A DNA stretch of 64,000 bases. Origin: Patescibacteria group bacterium. GTDB taxonomy: Bacteria; Patescibacteriota; Minisyncoccia; JAHISW01; Tagabacteraceae. A model generated the notes under the pieces. That model searched no databases. It was not told the origin of the DNA and worked only from the letters and a program-made list of their open reading frames with translations. The position numbers were made by a program, and so were the translations under genes. Location of the stretch: positions 18,064 to 82,063 of the forward strand of contig JAHJQY010000016.1 of NCBI GenBank assembly GCA_018819015.1. Direction: 5' to 3'. Positions 1,474 to 63,145 of this stretch are shown piece after piece. Every line of letters starts with the position of its first letter. Within the stretch, counting starts at the first letter, position 1.

Positions 1474-2541
1474 ATGAGAATATTAGCCATAGAAACTTCC
1501 TGCGACGAAACGGCAATAAGCGTTTTGAGCGCGGATAAAAAGGAATTTAAGATTTTATCCAACGTTATTTCCTCGCAGGTGAAAATACATGCCGAATGGG
1601 GCGGAGTGGTGCCCAGTTTGGCTAAGCGTGAACATCTTAAAAATTTGCCCGTTGTTTTAAAAAAAGCGCTGGCGCGGGCAAAAATTAAAAAACCAGAAAA
1701 AAAAATCAATCTTATCGCCGTTACCCAGGGTCCCGGGCTAGAACCAGCCTTATGGACAGGCATTAATTTTGCTGAAGAATTGGCGAAAAAATGGAGTAAA
1801 CCTTTAATACCCATAAACCACATGGAAGGGCATTTCTTTTCTGTTTTTCTTAAAAACAGAAAAGAGGGCGAACAGGAAATTCCAAAATTAGAATTTCCTG
1901 TTTTAGCCTTGCTAGTCAGCGGCGGACACACGGAATTAATTCTCGTAAAAGATTGGCTGAAATACAAAATTCTCGGACAAACCCGCGACGACGCCGCCGG
2001 TGAGGCCTTTGATAAAGTGGCGAAAATGATGAATTTGGGATACCCCGGAGGGCCTATTATCTCGAGACTCGCCAATGTTCGAAGTTCAACTTCGAACATT
2101 GAATTACCTAGGCCGATGATAAATTCAAAAGATTATGATTTTTCTTTTTCCGGCTTGAAAACCGCAGTTTTATATACTCTTAAAAAATTCCCAGTTGCCA
2201 ACTACAAATTACTAGCGCCCGGCATTTGCCGTGAATTTCAGCAGGCGGTAATTGATGTTTTGATTTCCAAAACAATACGGGCGGCCAAAGAATATAAAGC
2301 CAAAACTATTATAGTCGCAGGAGGTGTTGCCGCCAACAAAGAACTTCGCAAACAATTTGGACGAAAAATTAAAAAAGAACTGCCAATTACTAATTACTTG
2401 TTACCAATTACTAAGTTTTCAGGCGACAATGCGGCCATGATTGCTTTAGCCGCTTATTTTCGTTTCAAGGCAAATAAAAAATCCCATCAGTCACGGCTGA
2501 TGGGATTAAAAGCTCTTGGCAATTTAAAAATTAGTTATTAA
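1474..2541 (+). CDS. tsaD: tRNA N6-adenosine threonylcarbamoyltransferase TsaD (Kae1/Gcp family)
   Basis: Starts 'MRILAIETSCDETAISV' and contains 'GVAANKELR' and 'SGDNAAMIA', all hallmark TsaD motifs. The start was moved to the ATG at 1474. Carries the in-frame 27-nt palindrome at 2074-2100 (NVRSSTSNI). Confidence 0.9.
   Translation: MRILAIETSCDETAISVLSADKKEFKILSNVISSQVKIHAEWGGVVPSLAKREHLKNLPVVLKKALARAKIKKPEKKINLIAVTQGPGLEPALWTGINFAEELAKKWSKPLIPINHMEGHFFSVFLKNRKEGEQEIPKLEFPVLALLVSGGHTELILVKDWLKYKILGQTRDDAAGEAFDKVAKMMNLGYPGGPIISRLANVRSSTSNIELPRPMINSKDYDFSFSGLKTAVLYTLKKFPVANYKLLAPGICREFQQAVIDVLISKTIRAAKEYKAKTIIVAGGVAANKELRKQFGRKIKKELPITNYLLPITKFSGDNAAMIALAAYFRFKANKKSHQSRLMGLKALGNLKISY
2074..2100. 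repeat. 27-nt perfect palindrome, in-frame in tsaD (type copy of family 1)
   Basis: aatgttcgaagtt-c-aacttcgaacatt. Identical copies at 2889-2915 (valS) and 10293-10319 (SpoU). Variants at 45631-45657, 58419-58447, 62557-62585 and 59862-59910. Confidence 0.9.
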
Positions 2542-2792: not shown

Positions 2793-4808
2793 ATGTCAAG
2801 TTTCAACCAGCCATACGACCCAAAAGAGACTGAAGAAAAAATTTACAAGATTTGGGAAAAATCGGGCTTTTTTAACCCCGACAATCTCAATGTTCGAAGT
2901 TCAACTTCGAACATTGGTAAAAATTTTTCTATTGTTCTGCCGCCGCCAAATATCACCGGCTCGCTCCATATGGGCCATGCCCTCAACGCTACGATTCAAG
3001 ATATTTTAATACGCAAAAAAAGAATGGAAGGATTCAAAACCCTTTGGCTTCCGGGCACTGACCACGCCGGCATTGCCACGCAAAATGTCGTGGAAAAAAA
3101 TTTACTGAAAACAGAAAACAAAAGACGGCACGACTTAAGCCGAGAAAAATTCCTGGAAAAAATCTGGGAATGGAAAGAAAAATATGGCAATGAAATTTTA
3201 AACCAACTAAAAAAACTGGGGGCTTCCTGCGACTGGTCGCGAACCCGTTTCACCATGGATGAAGATTATCAAGAAAAAGTCCGTCAGGCCTTTCTGCATT
3301 ATTACAAAAAGGGCTGGATTTACCGCGCGGAAAAAGTAGTCAACTGGTGTGTCAAATGCCAAACTAGTTTATCTGACCTGGAACTGGAATACGAAGAAGA
3401 AAAAGGGAAACTATATTATATAAAATACCTGCCTGCCGGCAAGGCAGGTGGCCCAATAACCGTCGCAACAACAAGACCAGAAACAATGCTTGGAGACACA
3501 GCTGTTGCCGTCAACCCAAAAGACAAAAGGTATAAAAATTTAATAGACAAAAAAGTACTTTTACCAATTGTTGAAGAAGAAATTCCTGTTATCGCCGACG
3601 CAGCCGTAGAAAAAGAATTTGGCACCGGCGCAGTAAAGGTAACCCCGGCTCACAGCATAGTTGATTCTGAAATGGGAGAAAGACATGAATTGCCATCCAA
3701 AAAAATAATTAACGAATTTGGTAAAATGACTTTTGGAAAATACGCCGGGCTTTCCATCAAAGACGCGCGTGAACAAATTATTAAAGATTTGGGAAATAAA
3801 ATAGAGAAAATAGAAGACTATTCTCACAACCTCGCCACCTGTTATAGGTGCGGGAGTGTTATTGAAAATCTGCCCAGCCTGCAATGGTTTTTGAAAATGG
3901 ATCAACTGGCCAAAACAGCAATCAAAGCCGTCAAATCGGGCAAAGTGGTTTTTCATCCCAAGCGCTGGGAAAAAATTTATCTGGACTGGCTTTCCAACAT
4001 AAAAGACTGGTGCATTTCACGCCAAATCTGGTGGGGACACAAAATTCCCATTGAAAATTCAGAGGATGTTTTGGATACTTGGTTTTCGTCGGCTCTTTGG
4101 CCTTTTGCCACGATGAACAAAAAAGATATCAAAGAATTTTACCCGACCAATGTTTTGTCCACGGCTCGCGACATCATAAATCTCTGGGTGGCGCGCATGG
4201 TTTTTTCAGGAATTGAATTTGAAAAAAAAGCACCTTTCAAAAACGTATTAATTCATCCGACTATTTTAAACAAAGAAGGAAGAAAAATGTCCAAGTCGCT
4301 TGGAACAGGAGTGGATCCGATGAATTATATTGAAAAATACGGCGCGGATGCTACACGCTTCGGTCTAATCTGGCAGATGATGGGCAACCAGGATATACAC
4401 TGGGCCGAAGAACATGTTTTGGCCGGCAAGAAATTCTGCAATAAAATTTGGAATGCCAGTCGGTTTGTGCTAGCACAAAACGAAAATTACAAATTACAAA
4501 TTACAAATTCTAATGAACCAATATTAAAACAGTTAAATAAAATAATTAAATCAACCGACAAAAACATCGAACAATATCAATTTGGGCCGGCGCTTCATGA
4601 TTTATACAATTTTTTCTGGCGCGAATTTTGCGACAAATATATTGAGGAGTATAAAAAAAGCCAAGACAAAAACCCGGAAACGCTTTTATTGGTTTTAACG
4701 ACCTGCCTAGAACTTCTTCATCCTTTTATGCCGTTCATTACCGAAGAAATCTGGTCTAAATTACCCAACAGAAAAAATTTATTAATAATAGAAAAGTATC
4801 CAAAATAA
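2793..4808 (+). CDS. valS: Valyl-tRNA synthetase (short form lacking C-terminal coiled coil)
   Basis: Has HIGH-region 'PPPNITGSLHMGHAL', 'KMSKSLGTG' and the 'WCISRQIWWGHKIP' editing/CP1 signature. The start was moved to 'MSSFNQPY'. Contains the 27-nt palindrome at 2889-2915. Confidence 0.9.
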   Translation: MSSFNQPYDPKETEEKIYKIWEKSGFFNPDNLNVRSSTSNIGKNFSIVLPPPNITGSLHMGHALNATIQDILIRKKRMEGFKTLWLPGTDHAGIATQNVVEKNLLKTENKRRHDLSREKFLEKIWEWKEKYGNEILNQLKKLGASCDWSRTRFTMDEDYQEKVRQAFLHYYKKGWIYRAEKVVNWCVKCQTSLSDLELEYEEEKGKLYYIKYLPAGKAGGPITVATTRPETMLGDTAVAVNPKDKRYKNLIDKKVLLPIVEEEIPVIADAAVEKEFGTGAVKVTPAHSIVDSEMGERHELPSKKIINEFGKMTFGKYAGLSIKDAREQIIKDLGNKIEKIEDYSHNLATCYRCGSVIENLPSLQWFLKMDQLAKTAIKAVKSGKVVFHPKRWEKIYLDWLSNIKDWCISRQIWWGHKIPIENSEDVLDTWFSSALWPFATMNKKDIKEFYPTNVLSTARDIINLWVARMVFSGIEFEKKAPFKNVLIHPTILNKEGRKMSKSLGTGVDPMNYIEKYGADATRFGLIWQMMGNQDIHWAEEHVLAGKKFCNKIWNASRFVLAQNENYKLQITNSNEPILKQLNKIIKSTDKNIEQYQFGPALHDLYNFFWREFCDKYIEEYKKSQDKNPETLLLVLTTCLELLHPFMPFITEEIWSKLPNRKNLLIIEKYPK

Positions 4809-4813: not shown

Positions 4814-5518
4814 ATGACCTCGACTAATTTATTTTTCGCTTTGTCGGGCGGCATTCTGCCGGCATTATTATGGTTGTGGTTCTGGCTGAAAGAGGATCGC
4901 CTTCGTCCCGAGCCGCGGCGGCTGATAATCCTCACCTTCTTGGCCGGCATGGCCGTCGTTGCTTTCGCATTGCTGTCTGAACAAGCGGTATTTTTTGTTT
5001 TCAAAAAAGCAAATTTGACAACGGCGCTTGATGGATTCTTGCTGCTCTTTGTTTGGGCGGCGATTGAAGAAACGGCAAAATATCTGGCGGCGCAAAAAAC
5101 GGCCCTCAACAAAAAAGAATTTGACGAACCGGTTGACGCGCTGATATACCTTATAACCGCGGCTCTGGGTTTTGCCGCCCTGGAAAATGTGATTTTTTTG
5201 ATCAGCGTAATCAACGATTACGGGCTTATGGCGGGGCTTATAACCGGCAATCTGCGGTTTGCCGGAGCCACTTTGCTGCATATTCTCAGTTCATCGGCCA
5301 TTGGCGGCGCCATTGCCTTTTCTTTTTTCCGCCCAAAAAAATATTTGCGGAATATTTTTTTGGGCATAATCACGGCGATTTTGTTGCATACTGTCTTTAA
5401 TTATTTTATAATTAAAAGTAGCGGGGAAAATATTTTTCAGGTATTTTTACCGCTTTGGATATTAATAATTATACTGCTTCTGGTTTTTGAACGAATCAAA
5501 AAAATAAAAAATAAATAA
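4814..5518 (+). CDS. PrsW-family intramembrane metalloprotease
   Basis: Polytopic membrane protein with 'EETAKY' (EExxK), 'FAALEN' and two His motifs ('HILSS', 'HTVFN'), as in the PrsW/YpdC family. Confidence 0.6.
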   Translation: MTSTNLFFALSGGILPALLWLWFWLKEDRLRPEPRRLIILTFLAGMAVVAFALLSEQAVFFVFKKANLTTALDGFLLLFVWAAIEETAKYLAAQKTALNKKEFDEPVDALIYLITAALGFAALENVIFLISVINDYGLMAGLITGNLRFAGATLLHILSSSAIGGAIAFSFFRPKKYLRNIFLGIITAILLHTVFNYFIIKSSGENIFQVFLPLWILIIILLLVFERIKKIKNK

Positions 5519-7955: not shown

Positions 7956-9040
7956 ACTTCTCTCAAAAAATTTCTTAAAGCCAGGCCTATGGCTGTGGCA
8001 TACATAAAAGATTCCCGATGCTCCATCTCCGGCACATAATTTTCAAAAGAAAAGATATTTACCCAAGGATTGGCCGCCTCTACCGGCCTGCTTGATCCAT
8101 AGGACAAATAATCTGTAAGTCCCGGCATATTGGCATCGCCGCCGCAAAGAATAATTTTTTTTATTTCTTTATTTTTAAACCCTTGTTCTTCCGCGTATGT
8201 CTGCCAATAATTTGAAACTTCGGCAATCTCATCTTTTATTACCGAAACCACGGGCAAGATAACCTCAAAGTCGCCCCCTTCTTCTGTCTTCCGAAGGATT
8301 TTCTTTTTTTTTAATTCTTCAGCTTCAAAAATACTCAAATTCAATTTTTTTGCCAAAGCATTGTCAATATTCTCTCCGGCGACACTTACGGTGGAACCAA
8401 ATTTAACAACACTTTCCTCTCCAACCAAAAAACTGGTTCGCGTTTTTCCAAAATCTATTACCATAACCGCATCTTTGCAATCCGGCTCAACCACAGCCCT
8501 AAAAAGAGACTGCGTTTCCAGCTCAAAAACAACCGGAATAAAACCAGCTTTTTCAAAAATTTCAACGTAATCCTCAATAATTTCTCTGGGAAAAGCGCTA
8601 AGAGCAATTTCAAGACTGTCTTTTTTTGACGGATTTTTAACAATTTCAAAATCATAAACAATATCTGCCGGAGAAAAAGGAACAATTTCTTCCAATTGAA
8701 GTTCTAGACTTTTTCTAATCTGCGACCGCGACATCAAAGGAAGACGAACGATCTTCAAAAATGCTTTTTCTTCAGGCAAAGAAGCTATAACAAATTTATT
8801 GTTCGTCTCTTTTTCTATCAAACGAAGAGTCTCTATTAAAATTTCTTTTTGTTTCACTTCTCCTTTTTCCACCGCCCTCTTCTCAACTTTCTTGTCGCCG
8901 AATTTTTTTAATCTCAAAAAGCCGCCAACTTTTTCCATTTCTACATATTTTATGCTTCTATCGGAAATATCAATGCCAACAGCCGGCATTTTCAAATAGC
9001 GCGGCACCGGGAAAAATCTAAATAAAAAATTTCCACCCAT
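7952..9040 (-). CDS. pilM: Type IV pilus assembly protein PilM (actin-like ATPase fold)
   Basis: 'VGIDISDRSIKYVEM' at the N-terminus and 'ILCGGDANMPGLTDYLS' near the C-terminus, as in PilM/FtsA-like proteins. Confidence 0.75.
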   Translation of the reverse strand: MGGNFLFRFFPVPRYLKMPAVGIDISDRSIKYVEMEKVGGFLRLKKFGDKKVEKRAVEKGEVKQKEILIETLRLIEKETNNKFVIASLPEEKAFLKIVRLPLMSRSQIRKSLELQLEEIVPFSPADIVYDFEIVKNPSKKDSLEIALSAFPREIIEDYVEIFEKAGFIPVVFELETQSLFRAVVEPDCKDAVMVIDFGKTRTSFLVGEESVVKFGSTVSVAGENIDNALAKKLNLSIFEAEELKKKKILRKTEEGGDFEVILPVVSVIKDEIAEVSNYWQTYAEEQGFKNKEIKKIILCGGDANMPGLTDYLSYGSSRPVEAANPWVNIFSFENYVPEMEHRESFMYATAIGLALRNFLREV

Positions 9041-9103
9041 ACTTTTATTATAAACAATAACGGGCTTGAATAAAAGAAATTTTATCTTTATAGTAAAAAC
9101 ATT

Positions 9104-9505
9104 ATGTTAAGTTTATTTCCGGAACTTTTTGCCTATCAAAATTTGGCGCCGTTTATTATACGGCTGATTTTGGCCTTGATTTTCTTGGGAAACGGCTATT
9201 CCAAATTATTCAAAACATTTAATAAAACGATGGAGTTTTTCAATTCTGTAAAAATCAAGCCGGCGAAATTTTGGACGATTTTTGTCGGAATAACAGAGCT
9301 TCTTTCCGGGATCTTGTTGGCCATGGGTTTCTTAACTCAAGCGGCAGCCGTAGCGATAATTCTAATAATACTCGCGGCTATTATCAAAGTAAAAATAAAA
9401 CAAGGATTTTTGGGCGGTTACGATTTTGATTTATTGATTCTGGCCTGCGCGCTGGCTCTTCTTGTTTTAGGCCCCGGCGCTTTTTCAATAGATCTTCCTT
9501 TATAA
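9104..9505 (+). CDS. DoxX-family membrane protein
   Basis: 133 aa with four TM helices and 'RLILALIFLGNGYSKL', which is DoxX-like. Confidence 0.6.
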   Translation: MLSLFPELFAYQNLAPFIIRLILALIFLGNGYSKLFKTFNKTMEFFNSVKIKPAKFWTIFVGITELLSGILLAMGFLTQAAAVAIILIILAAIIKVKIKQGFLGGYDFDLLILACALALLVLGPGAFSIDLPL

Positions 9506-10085: not shown

Positions 10086-10535
10086 ATGTCTCAAAACAAA
10101 GAAATATATCTCATCCTCCACAACGTCCGCAGTCTGTATAATGTCGGCTCTATTTTTAGAACGGCTGATTGCGCCGGTGTGAAAAAAATTTTCCTGACCG
10201 GCTACACGCCGGAACCGGCTCCAAAAACCGCGCTCGGCGCGGAGAAAACCGTCCTTTGGGAAAAACACAAAAACATCTCCACCCTAATTTCCAATGTTCG
10301 AAGTTCAACTTCGAACATTAAAATAGTTGTGGTAGAACAAGACAAAAAAGCGATAAATTATAAAAATTTTAAACCAAAATATCCGCTAGTTTTAATTTTA
10401 GGCAATGAGGTGCGCGGGCTTTCCAAGCAAATCATCAAAAAATGCGACGCCATTATTGAAATCCCAATGAAGGGAAAAAAAGAATCTTTAAATGTGGCCG
10501 TGGCGGCCGGTATTATATTATTTTCTCTAAATTAA
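10086..10535 (+). CDS. SpoU/TrmH-family (SPOUT) RNA 2'-O-methyltransferase
   Basis: 'NVGSIFRTADCAGV' (motif 1) and 'LVLILGNEVRGL', 'IEIPMKG...SLNVAVAAGIILF' (SPOUT knot motifs). Contains the 27-nt palindrome at 10293-10319. Confidence 0.8.
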   Translation: MSQNKEIYLILHNVRSLYNVGSIFRTADCAGVKKIFLTGYTPEPAPKTALGAEKTVLWEKHKNISTLISNVRSSTSNIKIVVVEQDKKAINYKNFKPKYPLVLILGNEVRGLSKQIIKKCDAIIEIPMKGKKESLNVAVAAGIILFSLN

Positions 10536-11435: not shown

Positions 11436-12749
11436 TTACACACTTGATTTTAATAAAGCGAGTTCTTCCCGAACAACTTCCCGGTCATCCCATTCAATTT
11501 TAGTTCCCTTGGGGCCCATAATCCAAGGATCTGTCCCTTTGCCTGTGATGAGAACTGTATCGCCGGTTTTCGCTATTTTAAGCGCCTCGGCAATGGCTTC
11601 CCGTCTGTTAATAATCATCTTGTATTTAAAAGGTGATTTTTTTATTCCTTCGGCAATATCCTCCACAATTTTTTTTGGGCTTTCATCATAAGGATCCTCG
11701 TTGGTCAAAATGACTTCGTCGCAGCAAGCGGCCGCGATTTTGCCCATTTCGGCCCTTTTCCATTTGTCGCGGCCGCCGCCGGCCGCGCCCAAAACGCATA
11801 TCTTGCGCGAAGTCTGAAAAACTTCGTAAAGTTTTTCCAGCGAATCCGGCGTATGCGCGTAATCCACGACCACCTTGAAATCCTGTCCTTCTTCCACAAA
11901 TTCCACTCTCCCCGGAATACCCTTAAAGTTTTCCAGGGCGATTTTTATATCTCCCCAACCGACAGCTTGCGAACGCACAAAAGCCGCGGCCGCCAAAATA
12001 TTATAAAGGTTGAATTCGCCCAAAAGACCGGAATTAAATTCCTTGGCATCAACAACAAACTTAATGCCGAACTTGTTTAGAATATAGCTACTAGGGTATA
12101 GGGCATAGGGTATATTTATTTTTTCCGTCGGCGAATTTAATCCGTAAACCCATTTTTCATCCGCCTTAAAATCCAAAAATTGGACGGCATTTTTATCGTC
12201 TCCATTCACAATTATTACCTTCTTTTTTTTATATGATTTCTCAAGAACCTCAAAAAGTTTCAATTTCGCTTCCTTGTACTTTTCAAAGGAACCATGCGCT
12301 TCAATGTGCTCCAAAGACAAATTGGTAAAAATCACCGCGTCAAGGCCGATAAATTTATGACGAAACTGCGAAACGCCCTGCGACGTCATTTCCAAAAGAG
12401 CATATTGGCATTTTTCTTTTGCCGCCCGCCTTAAAAATCTTTGAAGAAAAAACCTGCCCGGAGTTGTCATCTTCTTCTCGTTGCGTTCCGATTCTTTGCC
12501 TATCTTAAAACGCAAAGTTGAAACCAGCGCGGTTTTATAACCGGCCTGTTCCAAAATAGCGCTCATAATTTCCAAAACACTGGTTTTCCCTTTGGTGCCG
12601 GTAACACCGACCACAAAAATTTTCCTGGAAGGAAATCTGTAAATCAAAGCCGCTAAAAAAGCCAGCAGCCAATGATAGGTTGGTTGAAAAAATTCAAATA
12701 ATTTTTTAGGAATAAGACTTTTGATAAAAATTAATATTTTGTTTATCAT
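11436..12749 (-). CDS. Mur-ligase family protein (MurE-like) with an N-terminal TM helix
   Basis: 'VVGVTGTKGKTS' (P-loop), 'MTTP', 'KYKEAKLKLFE' and 'VVDYAHTPDSLEKL' are Mur ligase central and C-terminal domain motifs. The usual N-terminal domain is replaced by a hydrophobic segment. Confidence 0.55.
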   Translation of the reverse strand: MINKILIFIKSLIPKKLFEFFQPTYHWLLAFLAALIYRFPSRKIFVVGVTGTKGKTSVLEIMSAILEQAGYKTALVSTLRFKIGKESERNEKKMTTPGRFFLQRFLRRAAKEKCQYALLEMTSQGVSQFRHKFIGLDAVIFTNLSLEHIEAHGSFEKYKEAKLKLFEVLEKSYKKKKVIIVNGDDKNAVQFLDFKADEKWVYGLNSPTEKINIPYALYPSSYILNKFGIKFVVDAKEFNSGLLGEFNLYNILAAAAFVRSQAVGWGDIKIALENFKGIPGRVEFVEEGQDFKVVVDYAHTPDSLEKLYEVFQTSRKICVLGAAGGGRDKWKRAEMGKIAAACCDEVILTNEDPYDESPKKIVEDIAEGIKKSPFKYKMIINRREAIAEALKIAKTGDTVLITGKGTDPWIMGPKGTKIEWDDREVVREELALLKSSV

Positions 12750-13667: not shown

Positions 13668-14387
13668 TTAAATCCTCAATAAAAATCTTTCCAAGCCGAT
13701 AGCCAGACCGCCAACGCCCTGGCGATCTTTGTGATAAAGGCCAACCAAATCACCCATAAAATTTTCCAATTCTTTTTCTTCAAACAAATCCGCCCCCCTC
13801 TTGGCCTTGCCATAAACAAACCGGTGCAAATCTTTTCCTCCTCCCTTTTTGACCAAAATTAAATTCTTAATCTGCCACAAAACTTTCCAAAAAAATTCCT
13901 CCGCCGGAACGCCTTCAAAAACTTCTTTCTGAAACAAGAGCCATGCCTCATTTCTTTTTCTTAGGGCCACCAAATCGGCTAGGCGGAAAAGTTTGTTAAC
14001 GGCCTGTTTTTCTTCATCTTTTTTCCCGCCCGGAACGGAAAATTCCCAGACATTTTTCGTATATTTTTTAATTTCATCCAGATAATCTTTCTTAACTTCT
14101 TCTTCAAAAAAAATAAAAATATTTTCCGAATCGCTTATCCTGCTCAAATTATTCAAAATATAATCCCGGCCGGCCGTATTGCCCAACAGCCTCTTGGCCG
14201 CCACCAAGTTTTTTCCGGAAAAAAGATTGCTCGTCTTTAAAGCATCCTCAAAAAGAGAAACTTCAAAAGATTCCTCGTCAAATTTAAAAAAAGATAAATT
14301 TTTCTCCTTTTCTAAAAATTGCGCCGCGATAGCGTTAAATTTTTCGTGGCCTCTTCCAACATCATTCCCGAAAACAAAATAGAGCAT
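13668..14387 (-). CDS. DNA polymerase III delta subunit (HolA)-like, short
   Basis: 'MLYFVFGNDVGRGHEKF...' matches a HolA-like N-terminus. At 239 aa it is shorter than canonical HolA. Confidence 0.4.
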   Translation of the reverse strand: MLYFVFGNDVGRGHEKFNAIAAQFLEKEKNLSFFKFDEESFEVSLFEDALKTSNLFSGKNLVAAKRLLGNTAGRDYILNNLSRISDSENIFIFFEEEVKKDYLDEIKKYTKNVWEFSVPGGKKDEEKQAVNKLFRLADLVALRKRNEAWLLFQKEVFEGVPAEEFFWKVLWQIKNLILVKKGGGKDLHRFVYGKAKRGADLFEEKELENFMGDLVGLYHKDRQGVGGLAIGLERFLLRI

Positions 14388-18241: not shown

Positions 18242-20587
18242 TTAATACCAAAAACGATAAATCTCAACCAGTTCTCCCCAGTTGTCTCCGGCCAGCACAT
18301 CAACCGCCACCGGCACGCCCGGAAGATTTTCTTCTTCCATAATTTTTTTAATCACCGGCGCTATTTCTCCAACCAGACTATTTTCCGCTTCAAAAATCAA
18401 TTCATCGTGAACTTGCAAAAGCAGATGTATTTTCCCGGAAAAATCTTTTTTTGATAAAACGCCGTCCAACTTAACCATGGCCCGCTTGATAATATCGGCT
18501 GCCGTGCCCTGAATCGGCGCGTTAACCGCCATTCTTTCCGCTTCTTTCCGAATATATTCAATGGGGGAATTAATTTCCGGCAGATAACGGCGGCGGCCAA
18601 ACATGGTCTCGGTAAAGCCGTTCTTTCTGGCGTTATGTTTTATCTTTTCCAGATAATCGGCCATGCCGGCGAAATCATGAAAATATTCTTCGTAAAAAAT
18701 TCTGGCTTCTTCTTGCGAACAATTAAGATTTTTCTTCAGACTGTTAATGCCCATGCCGTAAATAATGCCGAAGTTGATTATTTTGGCGCGCCGCCTCATT
18801 TCAGAAGTCACTTCTTCAAAAGGAGTGTTAAAAACTTCGGAAGCGACTTTTGCGTGAATGTCTTTGTTGTTAACAAAGGCATCTTTTAATTTTTCATCGC
18901 CGCTCAAGGCGGCGGCTATCCGCAATTCTATCTGCGAATAGTCAAAAGAAATCAAACTCCATTTTTTTGGAGCCACAAAAGCCCGGCGGACGGCGCGGCC
19001 GAATTCAGTTCTGGTGGGGATATTCTGCAAATTCGGCTCGGAAGACGAAAGCCGGCCGGTGGTTGTGCCGGTCTGGTTAAAAGAAGTATGAAGGCGGCTA
19101 TCTTTGTCAACCAATTTAGGCAAATTATCAATATAAGTTGATGTTAATTTTGCCAGTTCCCGGTAGGAAAATATTTCATCTACAATCGGGTGCCTGTCCT
19201 GTATTTTTTCCAGCTCGGAAAAACGGGTGGAAATCGCCCCCTGGCCGGTGCGGCGCATTCCCTTGGAAGAAACGCCCAGCTTGTTAAACAGCGCGTCTCC
19301 TAGTTGTTTGGGAGAATTGATATTAAATTCAAATCCGGCCAGTTTCCAAATTTTCTTTTCCAAAAATTCAAGGCGGCGATGATATTCTTTGGAAATTTTT
19401 TTCAAATGGTCCGTATCCAGCAAAATCCCTCTTTGCTCCATTTTGGAAAAAATATGAATCAGGGGCAATTCCGTTTCAAAAAAAAGTTTGGCAAAATTTG
19501 TTTTCTTAATTTCTTCATTCAATAATTTACTTGCTTCTTTCAGAGAAGGAACTTTTGTTTCGTTTATAATATCTTCAACAGATGGATTAACCCGGCGGGA
19601 ATCCAGCATCCAAAAGGCCAGTTTGGTTTCTTTTTCCAGCGCCGCGCCGTTTTCTTCAAAAGAAGCTGTTTCGTTTTCCGTTTCTCCCAACGGAAGTTTT
19701 TTCAAAAAACTTTTAAAACCGAATTCTTGAAAAAATTCTTTCACTTTGCCGGCCTCAAAACCAACGCCCCATTCGGAATCTTCAAGAGAAAATTCCATTG
19801 GCGCGTCCTTTCTTGTCTGAGCCAGCGCCTTGCTAAAAAACGCTTCCTCCTCGTTTTCTTCAAGCAGTTTTATTATTCTCGGCTTGATACCGGCTCTTTC
19901 AAACAAATCGGGAGATTTTTTGATCTTCTTATATAAATCTTCCAGCGAGCCAAAATTTTGTATCAAAATTTTGGCGGTCTTCTCGCCGATGCCGACCACG
20001 CCGATTATGTTATCCGACGGGTCGCCCATCAGACCCTTAAAGTCAGGGAGAAGCTCTGGCCGAAAACCATATCTTTCTTTAACCGCTTTTTCGTCGTAAA
20101 TAACAGAATCGAACATACCCTTCCGCATGGTAAAAACTTCCACGCCCGGCCGAACCAATTGCAACGCGTCCAAATCTCCAGTCACTATAATAATTTTTAA
20201 TCCTGATTTTTTTAACTGATGAACAATTGAAGCAAGGACATCATCTGCTTCAAAACCGGCTTTTTCATAAATCGGAACGCCGAATAATTTCAGAATTTTT
20301 TTTGATTTCTCAATTTGAGAACTTAGCTCGTCGTCCATTTTCGGCCGCTTGGCTTTATACTGGTCGTAAACTTGATGCCTGAAAGTGGGCTCCGGCAAAT
20401 CAAAACAAGCCGCGATATAATCGGGCTTCAAATCTTTTATGATTTTTAAAAAAGTGGAAATAAAACCGAACAGCGCGCCGGTGGGCTCGCCCCGAGGGGA
20501 AGTCAGGCCGGGCAGGGCATGAAAAGCGCGGTGCAAAACCGCGTGAGAATCAAGCAAAACCAAAGTTTTTTTTCCTTCCCGCGCCAT
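18242..20587 (-). CDS. polA: DNA polymerase I (5'-3' exonuclease + polymerase domains)
   Basis: 'LVLLDSHAVLHRAFHALP' is the 5' nuclease N-terminus. Pol A motifs are 'DYSQIELRIAA' and 'LQVHDELIFE'. Confidence 0.9.
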   Translation of the reverse strand: MAREGKKTLVLLDSHAVLHRAFHALPGLTSPRGEPTGALFGFISTFLKIIKDLKPDYIAACFDLPEPTFRHQVYDQYKAKRPKMDDELSSQIEKSKKILKLFGVPIYEKAGFEADDVLASIVHQLKKSGLKIIIVTGDLDALQLVRPGVEVFTMRKGMFDSVIYDEKAVKERYGFRPELLPDFKGLMGDPSDNIIGVVGIGEKTAKILIQNFGSLEDLYKKIKKSPDLFERAGIKPRIIKLLEENEEEAFFSKALAQTRKDAPMEFSLEDSEWGVGFEAGKVKEFFQEFGFKSFLKKLPLGETENETASFEENGAALEKETKLAFWMLDSRRVNPSVEDIINETKVPSLKEASKLLNEEIKKTNFAKLFFETELPLIHIFSKMEQRGILLDTDHLKKISKEYHRRLEFLEKKIWKLAGFEFNINSPKQLGDALFNKLGVSSKGMRRTGQGAISTRFSELEKIQDRHPIVDEIFSYRELAKLTSTYIDNLPKLVDKDSRLHTSFNQTGTTTGRLSSSEPNLQNIPTRTEFGRAVRRAFVAPKKWSLISFDYSQIELRIAAALSGDEKLKDAFVNNKDIHAKVASEVFNTPFEEVTSEMRRRAKIINFGIIYGMGINSLKKNLNCSQEEARIFYEEYFHDFAGMADYLEKIKHNARKNGFTETMFGRRRYLPEINSPIEYIRKEAERMAVNAPIQGTAADIIKRAMVKLDGVLSKKDFSGKIHLLLQVHDELIFEAENSLVGEIAPVIKKIMEEENLPGVPVAVDVLAGDNWGELVEIYRFWY

Positions 20588-20708: not shown

Positions 20709-20750
20709 ACTATATAACCATGTCCGGTCGGACATGGTTATATAGTGTTA
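20709..20750. repeat. Long hairpin element downstream of tsaE (aactatataaccatgtcc-ggtc-ggacatggttatatagtg)
   Basis: 18-bp near-perfect inverted repeat. A related 'actatatag...gttatatagtgtt' element occurs at 49636-49680. Confidence 0.6.
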
Positions 20751-20764: not shown

Positions 20765-21214
20765 TTATCGACTTACGAAATCGATAATTCGTCTTTTTTC
20801 GTCCAAATGCTCAAATTTTATCCAGATAGTATTCTTGGGCAGGATTTTTTTAACTTTCTCCGCCCATTCCACCAAAATTATATTTTCCGGATTATTAACC
20901 AACTCCTCCCACCCCAGATATAAAATTTCCTTGGGATTGTCAATTCTATAAGCGTCAATATGTACTAAATTTTTGAATTTCTTGAGTATTACAAAAGTAG
21001 GACTGGTAATTTTATCCTTTATTCCCAACGCCTTGGCAAATCCCTGAACAAAAACCGTCTTGCCCGCGCCCAAATCGCCGCTCAAAGCAATAACACAAGC
21101 CTCGCACGACTTCCGAAGTCGTGTGGATATGATTTTTTTAGCCAGAGATTCGGCCAACTTACCGGTCTGACCGCAGGTGCGACTAATTTTTCTCATAAAC
21201 TCATTACACCGCAA
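20765..21214 (-). CDS. tsaE: tRNA threonylcarbamoyladenosine biosynthesis ATPase TsaE
   Basis: 'LSGDLGAGKTVFVQGFAKALGI...SPTFVILKKF'. Confidence 0.8.
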   Translation of the reverse strand: MRCNEFMRKISRTCGQTGKLAESLAKKIISTRLRKSCEACVIALSGDLGAGKTVFVQGFAKALGIKDKITSPTFVILKKFKNLVHIDAYRIDNPKEILYLGWEELVNNPENIILVEWAEKVKKILPKNTIWIKFEHLDEKRRIIDFVSR

Positions 21215-26562: not shown

Positions 26563-26570
26563 TTAAAAAC

Positions 26571-45600: not shown

Positions 45601-45670
45601 CGCCCTTTTTCCGCCCCCATGTGGATAATCAATGTTCGAAGTTCAACTTCAATCATTGGCGTGCGGGGGA

Positions 45671-49592: not shown

Positions 49593-49606
49593 TTTCTTTT
49601 TTAGTA

Positions 49607-49634
49607 TCTGTGGGAGGTCGGACCTCCCACAGAT
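49607..49634 (+). terminator. Perfect 13-bp stem hairpin downstream of pilB
   Basis: tctgtgggaggtc-g-gacctcccacaga. Confidence 0.6.
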
Positions 49635-57817: not shown

Positions 57818-58712
57818 AGGTGTGTACATGGCTTTGGCCACGGCTTTTGTCAGCGGTTTCGCAGTTTTTTTTAATAAATTTGCCGTCGATTTTTGGCAGA
57901 ATTCTTCGGTTTTTACAACCGGCAAAAATTTAGTGGCTGCGTTGTTTTTAACTTCTCTTATTTTATTGTTAAAAAAGAGAACCGAGTTGAAAAATTTAAC
58001 CAAAAAACAGTGGTTGCAGCTGGTTGTTATTGGTTTTGTCGGCGGTTCGGTTCCTTTTCTTTTGTTTTTTAAAGGATTGTCGCTTGCCTCGGCGGTTAAC
58101 GCCGCTTTTATTCATAAAACATTGTTTGTTTGGGTCGCGTTTTTGGCTGTTTTGTTTCTTAAAGAAAAAACTTCTGTTTTGCAGTGGTTGGCACTGGCTG
58201 TTCTTTTTGCGGGAGTTTATCTTTTTTCTTCGCCCGGCGATTTTAAAATTGGTTACGGAGAAATTTTAGTTTTTGGCGCCACTTTAATATGGGCTGTTGA
58301 AAATATAATTGCCAAAAAGGTTTTAGAAAATATTTCTGCGCTGGTTGTGGGGTGGGGCAGGATGTTTTTCGGGTCGTTTTTTCTTTTGGTTTATCTAGTT
58401 GCGACTGGCGATATTGTCCAACTATTGAAGTTCAACTTCAATAGTTGGGGCTGGTTGGTTTTAAGCGGCGCGATTCTTTTTGGCTATGTCGTCACCTGGT
58501 ATTCGGCTCTAAGGCGCGCGCCGGCCACAGTGGTTTCTTCAATTTTGGTTCTGGCGGCGCCGATTACCGCTTTGCTAAATTCTATTTTTATAACCCATCA
58601 ATTTAAAATTTCTTTGCTTTGGCCGACGGTCTTGATTTTGACCGGAGTTTTATTAGTCAGCGGATTATATGGATGGTTTAGAACTTTTTATCAAGTACGC
58701 CCTGCCTCCTAA
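57807..58712 (+). CDS. EamA/DMT-family transporter
   Basis: About 10 TM helices in two EamA repeats. Contains a 29-nt palindrome at 58419-58447. Confidence 0.7.
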   Translation: MKNKGVYMALATAFVSGFAVFFNKFAVDFWQNSSVFTTGKNLVAALFLTSLILLLKKRTELKNLTKKQWLQLVVIGFVGGSVPFLLFFKGLSLASAVNAAFIHKTLFVWVAFLAVLFLKEKTSVLQWLALAVLFAGVYLFSSPGDFKIGYGEILVFGATLIWAVENIIAKKVLENISALVVGWGRMFFGSFFLLVYLVATGDIVQLLKFNFNSWGWLVLSGAILFGYVVTWYSALRRAPATVVSSILVLAAPITALLNSIFITHQFKISLLWPTVLILTGVLLVSGLYGWFRTFYQVRPAS

Positions 58713-59609: not shown

Positions 59610-60827
59610 TTAGTGTACAGAACAAGTAATACATGGATCATAGGCCCGGACGAGCATCTCAAGTAGGCGCTCTTTTTCTTTTTGGGTTTTTTCTTTGTTT
59701 TGCTCCAAAAGCGCGTTAGCGCTTTTTTCTATGGAGGTAAGGTTTTGCACGGTTGGAGTGATAATGTTGGCGTAGGTGATAATGCCTTTGTTGTTCCAGC
59801 GCAGTTCATGGTAAAGCCCGCCGCGCGGGGCTTCTATTGCGCCTATACCCTCGCTTGCGTAAACATCGAAGTCCGACTTCGATGTTCCATCGAAGTCGGA
59901 CTTCGATGCAAGTAATTGTTCTAAAATTTTTCCGGCTTGTTTGTGATAAAGCAAAATTTCAATGGCCTGCGCGATATTGTTATGGAAAGGATTTTGAAAA
60001 TCTAGGATTTCTTTTTCTTTGTGGTCGGAAAAATAAAGCCGGGCCAGCGCGCCAACCATTATTTCTCGGCCCTTATAGCCGCCAAATTTGGCAGTGGAAT
60101 AGTTTCTGATTTCCTCGGTAATAACTTCTTTATAATTTTTTATAGAAGGGTTTACCCTGAGCGGAGTCGAAGGGTCGTTTTTGTTTGATAAAATTTTTTC
60201 TTTCTTTTGGGTTACTAGCTCTAAATCAACTTTTAGTTCCGGAAATTTAATTTTTGAGCAGATATTCAAGGCGCGACCAGCCGACGCTCTTGTTTGTTTG
60301 ATTTTTTGGAGCAGTTTTTCCAATTGTTCTCTAGTCGGAATTTTATGAAAACCGCCGATGGTGGTGGTTGTCGGGTGGACGTTGCGGCCGGCCACGACAG
60401 CCGCGATGTCATCGGAGACTTCTTTTATATCCAGCGCGGCCTTAAAATCTTTTGGATTTTTTTGGGCCAGCTCGGTGCCGCGGTCTATTCCCAGATAGTC
60501 CGGCAAAGACAAAAAGAATAAATGAAGAGCGTGGCTTTGCATCATTTGGGCGCAGACCATCAATTCGCGAAGGAGTTCTGTTGTTTCGCTGATTTCAATT
60601 TTCAGGCCATCCTCGCAAGCGCGCAAAGAGGCCAGATTATGGGCGATAGGGCAGACGCCGCAGATGCGCGGGGTTATCCAGTGGCTTTCTTCAATGGTTC
60701 GGCCGACCAGCAATCCTTCAAAAAGCCGCTCGCCTTCGTGAATATGCAGTTTGACTTGGCTCTTGGAAAAATCAGTTTCCAAGCTACCGTGTCCCTCAAT
60801 TTTCGCGATATATTTATCGGTGATCAT
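59610..60827 (-). CDS. [NiFe]-hydrogenase large subunit, group 3 (sulfhydrogenase alpha-like)
   Basis: 'KIEGHG' at the N-terminus, L1 'RICGVCPIAH', and L2 'DPCITCSVH' as the very C-terminus with no extension. Contains tandem in-frame palindromes at 59862-59910 and a family-2 repeat at 60155-60174. Confidence 0.85.
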   Translation of the reverse strand: MITDKYIAKIEGHGSLETDFSKSQVKLHIHEGERLFEGLLVGRTIEESHWITPRICGVCPIAHNLASLRACEDGLKIEISETTELLRELMVCAQMMQSHALHLFFLSLPDYLGIDRGTELAQKNPKDFKAALDIKEVSDDIAAVVAGRNVHPTTTTIGGFHKIPTREQLEKLLQKIKQTRASAGRALNICSKIKFPELKVDLELVTQKKEKILSNKNDPSTPLRVNPSIKNYKEVITEEIRNYSTAKFGGYKGREIMVGALARLYFSDHKEKEILDFQNPFHNNIAQAIEILLYHKQAGKILEQLLASKSDFDGTSKSDFDVYASEGIGAIEAPRGGLYHELRWNNKGIITYANIITPTVQNLTSIEKSANALLEQNKEKTQKEKERLLEMLVRAYDPCITCSVH

Positions 60828-62394: not shown

Positions 62395-63145
62395 AATACA
62401 GGCATTTCCAATTTCCCAGCGACAAGTCTTCCGCCCGCGTTTTTTCCGGAATTCCGCATTCTCTCAGTGTTTCTATTGATATATTAAGATTGTTTTTCAG
62501 CATCTTTCTTTTTTGGGAAAATCCTTTTTTAATCAGATTAAAAAATTTTTGTTCATCAATGATGGAAGTTGAACTTCCATCATTGAAAAAATTTTTGGAA
62601 ATGTTGTTTATTTTAATTACGGCCGAATCAACTTTCGGCGTTGGCGAGAAATTGCCGGCCGGCACTTTTTTTATAATTTTCGGCTGGCCGTAGGCATTTA
62701 CGCTTAACGATAGTATGCTGGCTTTTTTGTCGCGCATTACGATTCTCTCGGCTACTTCTTTTTGAATCATCAGAACCATCAGCGATGGCTGGTGTTCCGC
62801 GCCTAGAAATTGCCGCAGGAAATGCGAAGTGATGTAATAAGGAATGTTTGCCACAATTTTGAAATTTTTTATCCTGAGCTTGTCGAACGGATTGAATCTT
62901 AAAATATCGTCTTGGATAATTTCAAGATTTTTGGCGCCGGAAAATTTCTGTTTTAAAAATTCAACAAGCGATGGATCTTTTTCAACCGCGATAACTTGGC
63001 CGGCTTTGGCCAAAAGTTTTTCGGTCAGGATTCCTTTACCCGGACCGACCTCCAAGATGATGTCGTCCTTTTTTATTTCGGCGGCCTCAATAATTTCTTC
63101 GGCTATTTTTTTGTTTTGTAAAAAATTTTGTCCCAGTTTGGCCAT
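62381..63145 (-). CDS. rsmA: 16S rRNA (adenine1518/1519-N6)-dimethyltransferase
   Basis: 'MAKLGQNFLQN', 'EVGPGKGILT' and 'VANIPYYITS'. The start was trimmed to the canonical Met. Contains a palindrome at 62557-62585 and a family-2 repeat at 62871-62892. Confidence 0.85.
   Translation of the reverse strand: MAKLGQNFLQNKKIAEEIIEAAEIKKDDIILEVGPGKGILTEKLLAKAGQVIAVEKDPSLVEFLKQKFSGAKNLEIIQDDILRFNPFDKLRIKNFKIVANIPYYITSHFLRQFLGAEHQPSLMVLMIQKEVAERIVMRDKKASILSLSVNAYGQPKIIKKVPAGNFSPTPKVDSAVIKINNISKNFFNDGSSTSIIDEQKFFNLIKKGFSQKRKMLKNNLNISIETLRECGIPEKTRAEDLSLGNWKCLYFAVL

What the first reader, a model, noticed from the sequence alone, without database searches (positions are those of the whole stretch)
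2074..2100. Family of perfect 25-29 nt palindromes inserted IN FRAME in unrelated conserved genes (RPE-like)
The 27-mer 'aatgttcgaagttcaacttcgaacatt' (13-nt arms, 1-nt spacer) occurs at nucleotide-identical sequence in three unrelated housekeeping genes. The copies are in tsaD (2074-2100), valS (2889-2915) and the SpoU methyltransferase (10293-10319). Each time it is in frame and encodes NVRSSTSNI.

Related palindromes share the 'gaagtt-N-aacttc' core but have different arms. They occur in-frame in the EamA transporter (58419-58447, 'caactattgaagtt-c-aacttcaatagttg', VQLLKFNFNSW), in rsmA/ksgA (62557-62585, 'caatgatggaagtt-g-aacttccatcattg', DGSSTSIID) and in the NiFe hydrogenase large subunit (59862-59910). 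A degenerate copy lies intergenic at 45631-45657.

All lengths are multiples of 3 and all encode hydrophilic Ser/Thr-rich loops. This is the behaviour of Rickettsia palindromic elements: selfish palindromes tolerated inside ORFs. I am not aware of it being described for CPR/Patescibacteria. Three 100%-identical copies imply recent mobility or gene conversion.
Basis: seen in the sequence. Interest (0 to 1): 0.85.

Follow-up and report, generated by a model that had tools for sequence, protein, structure and literature searches.

The report
Perfect palindrome repeats inside Patescibacteria genes
A family of short, perfectly self-complementary DNA repeats sits in frame inside essential genes of an ultra-small (Patescibacteria) bacterium and its relatives; it behaves like the hairpin repeats usually found between genes, and it shows how proteins absorb repeats that arise at the DNA level.

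Summary
The 27-mer is exact in tsaD, valS and a SpoU gene, and 9 palindromes sharing a GRRGTY-N-RACYYC centre occur in 64 kb (0.02 expected). It is a DNA-level feature:
- The core is read in three frames.
- Synonymous-codon shuffles give 3.5 palindromes in coding sequence against 21 observed.
- Across 13 family members, 11 of 14 arm pairs change on both sides and none on one side.

The same family occurs in other Patescibacteria contigs, in TatD, RuvX, MnmA, ComF and RsmA. Orthologous sites ("slots") in TsaD, RsmA and hydrogenase carry palindromes in several genomes, with different arms or cores. About half of RsmA homologues have the slot empty.

"Inserted like RPEs" is only partly right:
- Palindrome lengths are 21-31 nt (45 for the doublet), so only the 27- and 21-nt units are multiples of 3.
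- Net length gain is 0-8 residues, not 9-10.
- One arm often overlaps conserved native codons, and some palindromes replace native sequence with no length change.

My best reading is a REP-like hairpin repeat that is copied between loci and kept perfect by templated correction. It may be serviced by a conserved single-copy RAYT-like Y1 transposase. In relatives, that gene is flanked by hairpins with the same AATGTTCG arms, but no such gene lies in the window. I rate it a new variant of a known kind.

The parts
2073..2101 (.). 29-nt perfect palindrome CAATGTTCGAAGTT-C-AACTTCGAACATTG in tsaD (gene 1474-2541 +). It encodes A-NVRSSTSNI-E, residues 201-209.
   Evidence: The AlphaFold model places it in coil after helix 192-200, with a pLDDT dip to 77. 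Net gain is +1-2 aa against solved TsaD structures. The same slot holds related palindromes in L079 and L082.
2888..2916 (.). An identical 29-nt palindrome in valS (about 2793-4808 +), 815 bp downstream of the tsaD copy. It encodes L-NVRSSTSNI-G.
   Evidence: Net gain is +8 aa against T. thermophilus ValRS, +5 against L079 and 0 against L077. L077 has a small CCAGCC-TCG-GGCTGG hairpin at the same place.
10293..10319 (.). The 27-nt palindrome in a SpoU/TrmH-type methyltransferase gene (10086-10535 +), encoding NVRSSTSNI.
   Evidence: It replaces the segment K--RLKKQGV of a 50%-identical homologue (L019) for a net +2 aa. Net gain is also +2 against PDB TrmH structures.
45631..45657 (.). Intergenic imperfect copy AATGTTCGAAGTT-C-AACTTCAATCATT. 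The left arm is tsaD-type and the right arm is close to rsmA-type. It lies just upstream of a TTGACA-17-TATAAT promoter-like site.
49606..49634 (.). Intergenic family member ATCTGTGGGAGGTC-G-GACCTCCCACAGAT, 14 nt after the stop of a T2SS/T4P ATPase gene (47832-49592).
   Evidence: It has the same arms as the TsaD-slot palindrome of L082 (GCTGTGGGAAGTT-C-AACTTCCCACAGC), with two compensated changes.
58418..58448 (.). 31-nt perfect palindrome CCAACTATTGAAGTT-C-AACTTCAATAGTTGG in an EamA transporter gene (57807-58712 +). The core is read in another frame (VQLLKFNFNSW).
   Evidence: The same arm type occurs in a prepilin-peptidase-like ORF (my reading of its translation, not scanned against Pfam) of L051 and in L001.
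59862..59908 (.). A doublet of two palindromes (59862-59886 and 59888-59908) with a GAAGTC-N-GACTTC core and opposite centre bases. Together they form a 21-nt-arm inverted repeat with spacer TTC, in the NiFe hydrogenase large subunit gene (59610-60827 -), encoding ASKSDFDGTSKSDFDV.
   Evidence: L077 has a doublet of unrelated sequence at the same protein site. A HisRS-gene doublet in L077 (4548-4588) has the same TTC spacer. Net gain is +3 aa against sulfhydrogenase 9e1j.
62556..62586 (.). 31-nt perfect palindrome TCAATGATGGAAGTT-G-AACTTCCATCATTGA in rsmA/ksgA (62381-63145 -), encoding FNDGSSTSIID.
   Evidence: Net gain is +6 aa against empty-slot homologues. L096 and L097 carry the same core at the same slot with compensated arm changes.

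Best explanation
The 27-mer is one subfamily of a REP-like family of short, perfect, odd-centred DNA palindromes with the general form AAYKWTN-GAAGTT-N-AACTTC-N'AWMRTT. More distant variants also exist. The family lives mostly inside housekeeping genes of this Patescibacterium and its relatives.

Shown:
- It is a DNA-level repeat, not a peptide motif.
- Copies occur in many unrelated genes and in several genomes.
- The same permissive loop positions ('slots') are occupied in divergent orthologues.
- The arms stay strictly Watson-Crick through double-sided changes.
- Only stop-free frames are seen. In the NVRSSTSNI frame a centre G would create TGA, which explains the constant centre C.

Inferred mechanism:
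1. A hairpin-forming unit is copied into another locus. This could be single-strand transposition or microhomology-primed ectopic template switching.
2. A candidate enzyme for this step is the lineage's conserved single-copy Y1 HUH (RAYT-like) transposase.
3. Intra-strand template switching then keeps or extends the arms. It overwrites one flank with the complement of the other, which explains the small net length change and the native residues found in one arm.
4. Selection on the protein leaves survivors only in surface loops.
5. The segments are presumably translated as loop residues.
For: DNA level:
- The core is read in three frames.
- Coding sequence holds 21 perfect palindromes against 3.45 +/- 1.7 in synonymous-codon shuffles. 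For arms of 11 or more the figures are 12 against 0.45.

Structure kept at the DNA level:
- In the pair count on 13 members, 94.5% of cells are paired.
- 11 of 14 pairs change on both sides, in 40 cells.
- There are 0 one-sided (G-U type) cells.

Dispersal:
- The same element occurs in 8 contigs of sample Ga0180009 that do not overlap the window. There it lies in ORFs I read, from their translations and not from Pfam, as TatD, RuvX, MnmA and ComF.
- It also occurs in RsmA of L097.

Slots:
- TsaD: window, L079 and L082 share either arms or core.
- RsmA: window, L096 and L097 are filled, L095 is empty, and about half of 120 homologues are empty.
- The hydrogenase doublet is at the same site in L077.
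- The TsaD segment is a low-confidence coil in the model.

In-situ palindromisation without length change:
- tsaD 1835-1865 encodes FSVFL|KNRKE. Its left arm is the conserved native motif.
- The same is seen in PrsW and in the RsmA C-terminus of L095 and L097.

Y1 lead:
- The closest relative, L077, has a Y1_Tnp gene (Pfam E = 3e-8) flanked by AATGTTCGCCAC-TCG-GTGGCGAACATT. This has the same 8-nt outer arm as the window element.
- The family is single-copy, has been found only in Patescibacteria so far, and sits in conserved synteny.
- The gene is hairpin-flanked in L085 and L086 and in L087 (perfect hairpin downstream, one mismatch upstream). In L095 the flanking palindrome has a 1-nt centre.
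Against: - No Y1 transposase gene is present in the 64-kb window (tblastn), and the rest of the genome could not be read.
- The hairpins flanking Y1 genes have other tips (CAC-TCG-GTG) than the GAAGTT-N-AACTTC core.
- Three Y1-bearing loci (L085-L087) show few intragenic palindromes.
- No strain-level presence/absence polymorphism was available, because the nearest relative is 68% identical in TsaD. Mobility is therefore inferred from identical copies only.
- Net length changes of 0-8 aa do not fit simple insertion of a 27-31 nt unit.
- Long persistence at conserved slots could equally mean function.
- The members in the pair count were chosen because they are palindromes, so the percentage paired is partly circular.
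Confidence: 0.55

Rival explanations
1. There is no transposition at all. The palindromes arise and are perfected in place by quasi-palindrome template-switch mutagenesis in AT-rich coding sequence. Identical copies come from short-patch ectopic template switching or gene conversion between nearby hairpins. No dedicated enzyme is involved.
For: - Several palindromes overlie native-length sequence, with one arm encoding conserved residues: tsaD 1835-1865, PrsW and the RsmA C-terminus in L095/L097.
- Net length change at family sites is small.
- Strict Watson-Crick compensation is seen.
- The two 29-nt identical copies are only 815 bp apart.
- The intergenic copy at 45631 has hybrid arms.
- Template-switch correction of quasi-palindromes is an established mutational process (papers listed).
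Against: - The same 25-27-mer is found in at least 10 unrelated genes on non-overlapping contigs, with no obvious flanking homology.
- RsmA shows a discrete +6-codon gain at one point relative to empty slots.
- Seeding a new site needs more than correction of an existing inverted repeat.
Confidence: 0.22
2. The palindromes are functional sites. They could be binding sites for a dimeric, genome-specific DNA-binding protein, or for the domesticated Y1 protein itself. They could also be mRNA hairpins that tune translation or decay. In either case they would be placed inside genes because these genomes have almost no intergenic space.
For: - The same slots are occupied in genomes 55-68% identical in the host protein.
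- The core is conserved while the arms vary.
- Coding density is about 95%.
- The predicted RNA hairpins are stable, at -15.8 to -36.8 kcal/mol.
Against: - About half of RsmA homologues lack anything at the slot.
- Arms vary freely as long as they pair, which is not how a sequence-specific operator behaves.
- No G-U type pairs are seen, which argues against RNA-level selection.
- No Rfam family matches.
- Host genes have no common function.
Confidence: 0.15
3. DNA uptake signal sequences. These would be short motifs favoured by the competence machinery and spread by biased uptake and homologous recombination, which replaces sequence without changing length.
For: - Replacement without length change occurs at several sites.
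- Motif sharing looks genome-specific or lineage-specific.
- A type IV pilus/T2SS ATPase is present in the window.
Against: - Density is about 1 per 7 kb, not about 1 per kb.
- The units are 21-31 nt perfect palindromes, not 9-12 nt oriented motifs.
- Several distinct arm subfamilies coexist in one genome.
Confidence: 0.04
4. An assembly, adapter or chimera artefact.
For: Palindromes can be created by some amplification and assembly errors.
Against: - An independent Logan assembly carries both copies.
- All intragenic copies keep the frame open in conserved genes.
- Related palindromes occur at orthologous sites in NCBI, ENA and JGI assemblies from other samples.
Confidence: 0.01

Closest known systems
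Rickettsia palindromic elements (RPEs)
   Same: Both are repeat families found in frame inside unrelated conserved genes of a reduced-genome bacterium, translated as extra or altered surface segments (PMC10969869).
   Different: RPEs are about 150 bp and each encodes a conserved peptide. The units here are 21-31 nt perfect palindromes read in three frames. They often give little or no net length gain, are shared across slots of divergent genomes, and show strict compensated arm changes.
REP / REPIN elements with RAYT (TnpAREP) Y1 transposases ('REPtrons')
   Same: - Both are 20-40 nt hairpin repeats. Some known REPs are perfect palindromes with 3-4 nt loops (PMC8266576).
- Inverted doublets occur, like the hydrogenase doublet here.
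- The transposase is single-copy, vertically inherited and flanked by its own hairpins. This is seen in relatives L077, L085-L087 and L095.
   Different: - REPs are by definition extragenic, and carry a GTAG or CGTC tag. Neither holds here.
- The Y1 protein scores 30 bits against the NCBIfam REP_Tyr_transpos cut-off of 80.
- No Y1 gene was found in the window.
Quasi-palindrome template-switch mutagenesis (Ripley model; E. coli and yeast work listed)
   Same: It converts imperfect inverted repeats into perfect ones and copies a change in one arm to the other without changing length. That matches the compensated changes and the in-situ palindromes seen here.
   Different: It is known as a mutational hotspot mechanism at single loci. 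It is not known to maintain a dispersed, multi-genome repeat family inside genes.
Palindromic repeats with coding potential in Methanocaldococcus jannaschii (Suyama, Lathe and Bork 2000; cited from memory, not checked here)
   Same: Short palindromic repeats that can lie within ORFs.
   Different: They are archaeal and of different sequence and size. No slot conservation or compensated evolution was described, to my knowledge.
High density of perfect inverted repeats in CPR phyla (PMC13155455)
   Same: That survey ranks Ca. Campbellbacteria and Ca. Kaiserbacteria highest of all phyla for density of perfect inverted repeats. This is consistent with the excess seen here.
   Different: The survey reports inverted repeats as mainly intergenic. 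It does not describe in-frame intragenic families, slots or concerted changes.

Membership tests
Rickettsia palindromic elements (RPE) | Element length about 100-150 bp, encoding a conserved peptide of about 30-50 aa | tested here: not met
   The units are 21-31 nt, or 45 nt for the doublet. The core is read in three different frames. RPE size is taken from PMC10969869.
Rickettsia palindromic elements (RPE) | Inserted in frame within unrelated protein-coding genes | tested here: met
   Six host genes in the window. Further hosts occur in other contigs.
Rickettsia palindromic elements (RPE) | The insertion adds the whole element length relative to orthologues without it | tested here: not met
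   Net gain is 0 to +8 aa, against the 9-10 expected.
REP / REPIN-RAYT system | Short (20-40 nt) hairpin-forming repeat present in many copies | tested here: inconclusive
   Size and hairpin are met. There are 9 units in 64 kb, but the whole-genome copy number could not be counted.
REP / REPIN-RAYT system | Extragenic location | tested here: not met
   7 of 9 units lie inside coding sequence.
REP / REPIN-RAYT system | Conserved GTAG (or CGTC) tetranucleotide at the foot of the hairpin | tested here: not met
   The flanks of 16 listed occurrences of the element show no GTAG or CGTC; a C...G extension is most common. Y1-flanking hairpins in relatives also lack the tag in the canonical position.
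REP / REPIN-RAYT system | A cognate single-copy Y1 (RAYT) gene flanked by the same repeat | not testable with these tools
Relative L077 has a Y1 gene flanked by hairpins with the same AATGTTCG arm but a different tip.
REP / REPIN-RAYT system | The Y1 protein belongs to the RAYT family (HUH motif plus catalytic Tyr; NCBIfam REP_Tyr_transpos) | tested here: inconclusive
   Pfam Y1_Tnp E = 3e-8. NCBIfam gives 30 bits, below the cut-off of 80. HFH and YIHLN motifs are visible in the alignment.
MITE | Terminal inverted repeats around an internal region, with target-site duplications, 50-500 bp in length | tested here: not met
   The whole unit is one palindrome with a 1-nt centre, and no direct repeats are seen at the flanks.
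Intrinsic terminator | GC-rich hairpin followed by a T-run at a gene end | tested here: not met
   The intragenic copies lie mid-gene without T-runs. Only 49606-49634 lies after a stop codon, and it is followed by ATTATTT.

The most novel reading that the evidence does not exclude
Patescibacteria may maintain a genome-wide set of conserved hairpin 'slots' inside essential genes. The perfect palindromes in these slots would be rewritten in a genome-specific, concerted way by a domesticated Y1 HUH enzyme. In that reading it is a vertically inherited DNA-hairpin system with a cellular role, for example in replication or chromosome handling or in self-marking, rather than junk. A consequence would be an enzyme-driven route by which nucleic-acid constraints continually remodel protein loops.
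Probability: 0.15. Interest if true: 0.85.

Novelty: new variant of a known kind. Interest (0 to 1): 0.62.

Why it matters
- It extends hairpin repeats of the REP type from intergenic DNA into the reading frames of essential genes, in a huge and poorly understood bacterial radiation.
- It gives a concrete explanation for the odd, hypervariable loop segments seen in many Patescibacteria proteins, such as the TsaD and RsmA slots. These segments affect homology modelling, alignment and phylogenetics of these lineages.
- It offers a natural system for studying how DNA-level processes (templated palindrome correction, and possibly a domesticated HUH transposase) write protein sequence.
- It points to a testable enzyme-substrate pair: the conserved Y1 gene and its flanking hairpins.

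Tried and rejected
- Genome contigs and metagenome-contig scans with TTCGAAGTTSAACTTCGAA. The source contig itself is in neither collection, so no whole-genome census was possible. Twenty-odd metagenome hits, all with the same flanks (accaa...gagtt), belong to one conserved locus, mostly from human-gut assemblies, that also turned up in viral contigs and has no extended palindrome. It is unrelated.
- The Rfam gathering scan of the window found only 4 tRNAs.
- Fetching the 96.5-kb source contig through the exact TsaD protein returned only a 4.4-kb Logan contig.
- tblastn with five Y1 transposases against the window found nothing.
- I looked for orthologues in the window of the palindrome-bearing genes from Ga0180009 contigs, to obtain empty sites. 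None were present.
- Literature searches for intragenic or in-frame palindromes in CPR/Patescibacteria found no description.
- I rejected a peptide-level motif (three reading frames; codon shuffles), a terminator role (mid-gene, no T-run) and an artefact (independent assemblies).
- I considered parS-like and operator-like sites. I set them aside because the arms vary freely as long as they pair.
Full report
**1. The observation**

The 27-mer AATGTTCGAAGTTCAACTTCGAACATT is exact at 2074, 2889 and 10293. A 2-mismatch copy lies at 45631, and none is expected by chance. The core GAAGTTNAACTTC occurs six times against 0 expected.

A scan for perfect palindromes shows the true extents:
- 29 nt in tsaD and valS (14-nt arms)
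- 27 nt in the SpoU gene
- 31 nt in EamA and rsmA
- two adjacent units in the hydrogenase gene, which together form an inverted repeat with 21-nt arms

Pfam confirms the hosts: TsaD, class-I tRNA synthetase (ValS), SpoU methylase, EamA, NiFe hydrogenase large subunit and RsmA. All copies keep the frame open.

With the core relaxed to GRRGTY-N-RACYYC there are nine palindromic units at eight sites, against 0.02 in shuffles.

NCBI names the exact TsaD and RsmA proteins as Patescibacteria. An independent Logan assembly of run SRR6514730 contains the same tsaD and valS copies. The statements 'all lengths are multiples of 3' and 'all Ser/Thr-rich' are wrong.

**2. It is a DNA-level feature**

The core is translated in three frames:
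- NVRSSTSNI and DGSSTSIID
- LLKFNFNSW and SKSDFD
- PMFEVELRTLV, in a ComF-like gene of L051

In the NVRSSTSNI frame a centre G would create a TGA stop. That explains why those copies all have C in the sense strand; this follows directly from the sequence.

Keeping every protein sequence and the codon usage, but shuffling synonymous codons, gives 3.45 +/- 1.7 perfect palindromes (arms of 9 or more) in coding sequence, against 21 observed. For arms of 11 or more the figures are 0.45 against 12.

I counted base pairs on 13 family members from the window and five other loci:
- 94.5% of cells are paired.
- 11 of 14 pairs change on both sides, in 40 cells.
- No cell has a one-sided (G-U type) change.

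The members were chosen as palindromes, so the percentage paired is partly circular. The complete absence of wobble intermediates still points to a constraint or process acting on DNA rather than on RNA.

**3. The family extends beyond this window**

Pattern scans found extended perfect palindromes around the same centre in low-GC MAGs, including Saccharibacteria. Arms reach 26 nt (L004), and one locus has a tandem of cores (L001).

Eight contigs of one sample (Ga0180009) do not overlap the window but carry the same 23-27-mer. It lies in genes I read as TatD, RuvX, MnmA, ComF and a prepilin peptidase. These names come from the translations and were not scanned against Pfam.

Arm subfamilies recur across genomes:
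- AATGTTC: window, Ga0180009 contigs, L079, L097
- AACTATY: window EamA, L051, L001, L096
- CTGTGGG: window 49606, L082

**4. Slots**

*TsaD.* Among 120 Patescibacteria TsaD homologues, the loop between helix 192-200 and LPRPM is hypervariable in length and sequence. DNA was obtained for six of them, and four have a perfect palindrome there:

| Locus | TsaD identity to window | Palindrome in the loop |
|---|---|---|
| window | - | CAATGTTC-GAAGTT-C-AACTTC-GAACATTG |
| L079 | 55% | CAATGTTCG-GAGTC-G-GACTC-CGAACATTG |
| L082 | 61% | GCTGTGG-GAAGTT-C-AACTTC-CCACAGC |
| L084 | 60% | a doublet with 19-nt arms |

*RsmA.* About half of 120 homologues have the slot empty (FFx-DID-E). The rest carry inserts, many of which back-translate to palindromes, at exactly that point, including NVRSSTSNS, NVRGSTSNI and GSSTPIV. 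At the DNA level the window, L096 and L097 all have +6 codons relative to the empty L095. They share the centre and have compensated arm differences.

*Hydrogenase.* The window and L077 (the closest relative, 68% identical in TsaD) both have a doublet at the same protein site, but of unrelated sequence. A separate doublet in L077's HisRS gene has the same TTC spacer as the window's.

L077 has its own intragenic families, CTCGACAAC-N-GTTGTCGAG and CTTGGCGGT...ACCGCCAAG.

Positions are therefore conserved while sequences are shared within genomes. That is concerted change.

**5. Insertion or replacement?**

A 27-31 nt insertion should add 9-10 residues. The observed net changes are:

| Gene | Net change (aa) | Comparator |
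|---|---|---|
| TsaD | +1 to +2 | solved structures |
| SpoU | +2 | TrmH structures and a 50%-identical CPR homologue |
| ValS | +8 | T. thermophilus |
| ValS | +5 | L079 |
| ValS | 0 | L077 |
| Hydrogenase | +3 | 9e1j |
| RsmA | +6 | empty-slot homologues |
| MnmA (L052) | -2 | L048 |

One arm often encodes conserved native residues. Examples are HYVR in MnmA, I-x-LPRPM in TsaD and N-[IY]-G-K in ValS.

Other palindromes unrelated to the family are clearly made in place:
- tsaD 1835-1865 encodes FSVFL|KNRKE. The left arm is the conserved HMEGHxFSVFL motif and the right arm is its reverse complement.
- The PrsW palindromes involve no length change in four orthologues.
- L095 and L097 have a 23-nt palindrome over native-length RsmA C-terminal codons, with one compensated difference.

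The lineage therefore both gains short hairpin units and 'palindromises' existing sequence.

**6. Where the segments sit in the protein**

The AlphaFold model of TsaD was built from 54 sequences and has a mean pLDDT of 90.9. It places NVRSSTSNI (residues 201-209) in coil directly after helix 192-200, with a local pLDDT dip to 77. The second palindrome lies at the end of helix 116-125 and the following low-confidence coil. In SpoU the segment lies where TrmH-type homologues have the sequence LIKRLKKQG followed by VKII; I read that as the turn between a helix and a strand from general knowledge of the SpoU fold, not from a structure examined here.

**7. A candidate enzyme**

L077 encodes a 222-aa Y1_Tnp protein. 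Its Pfam E-value is 3e-8. Against NCBIfam REP_Tyr_transpos it scores 30 bits, below the cut-off of 80.

The gene is flanked upstream by AATGTTCGCCAC-TCG-GTGGCGAACATT and downstream by the same hairpin with one mismatch. There are also three TGTTCG motifs upstream and three CGAACA motifs downstream. The 8-nt outer arm is identical to that of the window element.

The family has 139 detectable members. Those that carry a source name are all Patescibacteria, and each cluster is on few contigs. In three genomes the gene sits in conserved synteny next to pth, S1 and hisS. It is hairpin-flanked on both sides in L085 and L086, and in L087 with one mismatch in the upstream copy; the orientation is inverted in L086.

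A second subfamily, 36-39% identical to the first, lies next to rsmA in L095. It is flanked on both sides by CCAAGGAT-T-ATCCTTGG (extending to CCCCAAGGAT-T-ATCCTTGGGG on the downstream side), a palindrome with a 1-nt centre like the window family.

This is the arrangement of RAYT/REP 'REPtrons' (PMC8266576), and one homologue is annotated RayT by JGI. Several points weaken the link, however:
- No Y1 gene lies in the window.
- The tips of the flanking hairpins differ from GAAGTT-N-AACTTC.
- No GTAG tag is present.
- L085-L087 show few intragenic palindromes.

The link is a lead, not a demonstration.

**8. Interpretation**

The best-supported reading is a REP-like hairpin repeat family that resides in reading frames. 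The proposed steps are:
- Units are copied between loci. The enzyme is uncertain, and the Y1 transposase is the best candidate.
- Units are kept perfect, and sometimes extended over native codons, by intra-strand template switching. This is an established mechanism for correcting quasi-palindromes (papers listed).
- Selection filters the survivors to stop-free frames in permissive loops.

The rivals are purely in-situ template switching with ectopic patch conversion, functional protein- or RNA-binding sites, uptake sequences, and artefact. They are weighed in the rival section. The first of these overlaps with the preferred model and cannot be cleanly separated with the present data.

**9. Comparison with known systems, and novelty**

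RPEs share the behaviour of in-frame repeats in conserved genes. They differ in size (about 150 bp), in having a fixed peptide, and in being clean insertions.

REP/RAYT shares hairpin size, doublets and the flanked single-copy Y1 gene. The defining extragenic location and GTAG tag are not met here.

A recent survey reports the highest perfect inverted-repeat densities of any phylum in CPR lineages. It describes inverted repeats as mainly intergenic and does not mention in-frame families (PMC13155455). My literature searches found no description of this phenomenon.

I therefore rate it a new variant of a known kind, and of moderately high interest. Three combined features make it more than another selfish repeat:
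- conserved slots
- sequence sharing that is specific to each genome
- strictly compensated change

Noticed in passing
window 1835-1865: A second, unrelated perfect palindrome in tsaD, TCTTTTCTGTTTTT-CTT-AAAAACAGAAAAGA, encoding FSVFL|KNRKE. The left arm is the conserved HMEGHxFSVFL motif and the right arm is its reverse complement. K-N-R/K after FL recurs in many Patescibacteria TsaD homologues.
   Followed up: partly
window 5331-5365 and 5396-5416 (PrsW protease gene 4814-5518): Two palindromes lie in a membrane protease with no length difference from three orthologues. The second (FNYFIIK; TTTAATTAT-TTT-ATAATTAAA) is present almost identically in L077 PrsW (13733-13755).
   Followed up: partly
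window 19694-19712, 19949-19975 (PolA); 21105-21123 (TsaE); 30761-30791 (DnaN); 11816-11837 (Mur ligase): Further perfect palindromes lie inside housekeeping genes and are not of the GAAGTT family. Overall, coding sequence holds 21 palindromes against 3.5 in synonymous-codon shuffles.
   Followed up: partly
window 20709-20746 and 26564-26601: Two long perfect palindromes with 18-19 nt arms. The first is intergenic. The second lies between the called genes 25831-26304 and 26599-27795, within a weak 100-aa ORF, so it is probably intergenic too. They may be terminators. An ACTATATA motif recurs at 20709 and around 49640-49680.
   Followed up: no
window 45660-45700: A sigma-70-like TTGACA-17-TATAAT site lies immediately downstream of the intergenic palindrome copy, facing the gene at 45726.
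   Followed up: no
window 18242-20587: The DNA polymerase I gene is 781 aa. It has 5'-3' exonuclease and polymerase domains, but no Pfam hit for a 3'-5' exonuclease domain. This may be relevant to tolerance of template switching.
   Followed up: no
window 59610-62394: A cytoplasmic NiFe (sulfhydrogenase-like) hydrogenase operon in a Patescibacterium, also present in relative L077. The best PDB match is Pyrococcus-type sulfhydrogenase alpha.
   Followed up: no
L077:2068-2736; L085:10001-10696; L086:9604-10257; L087:4672-5355 and 8785-9420; L095:2497-3192: Two subfamilies of a single-copy Y1 (IS200-like/RAYT-like) transposase are conserved in synteny in Patescibacteria. Each is flanked by its own hairpins, whose stems differ between genomes by compensated changes.
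   Followed up: partly
P0003-P0120 (TsaD) and P0242-P0360 (RsmA) loop segments: Recurrent peptide motifs in Patescibacteria loop inserts suggest many other repeat families at the nucleotide level are written into proteins of this radiation. Examples are KSQISNLK, EFSISNFQ, KFQIPK, GGSASGG, PPAGG, CATLNVAQ and HLEAGLPS.
   Followed up: no
L088-L094 and about 20 metagenome loci, mostly human gut (e.g. L016, L017, L021): The 19-mer TTCGAAGTTSAACTTCGAA also occurs at one conserved locus of an element represented in IMG/VR viral contigs of 5-108 kb and in mostly human-gut metagenome assemblies, without extended palindromy. It is unrelated to the family.
   Followed up: partly
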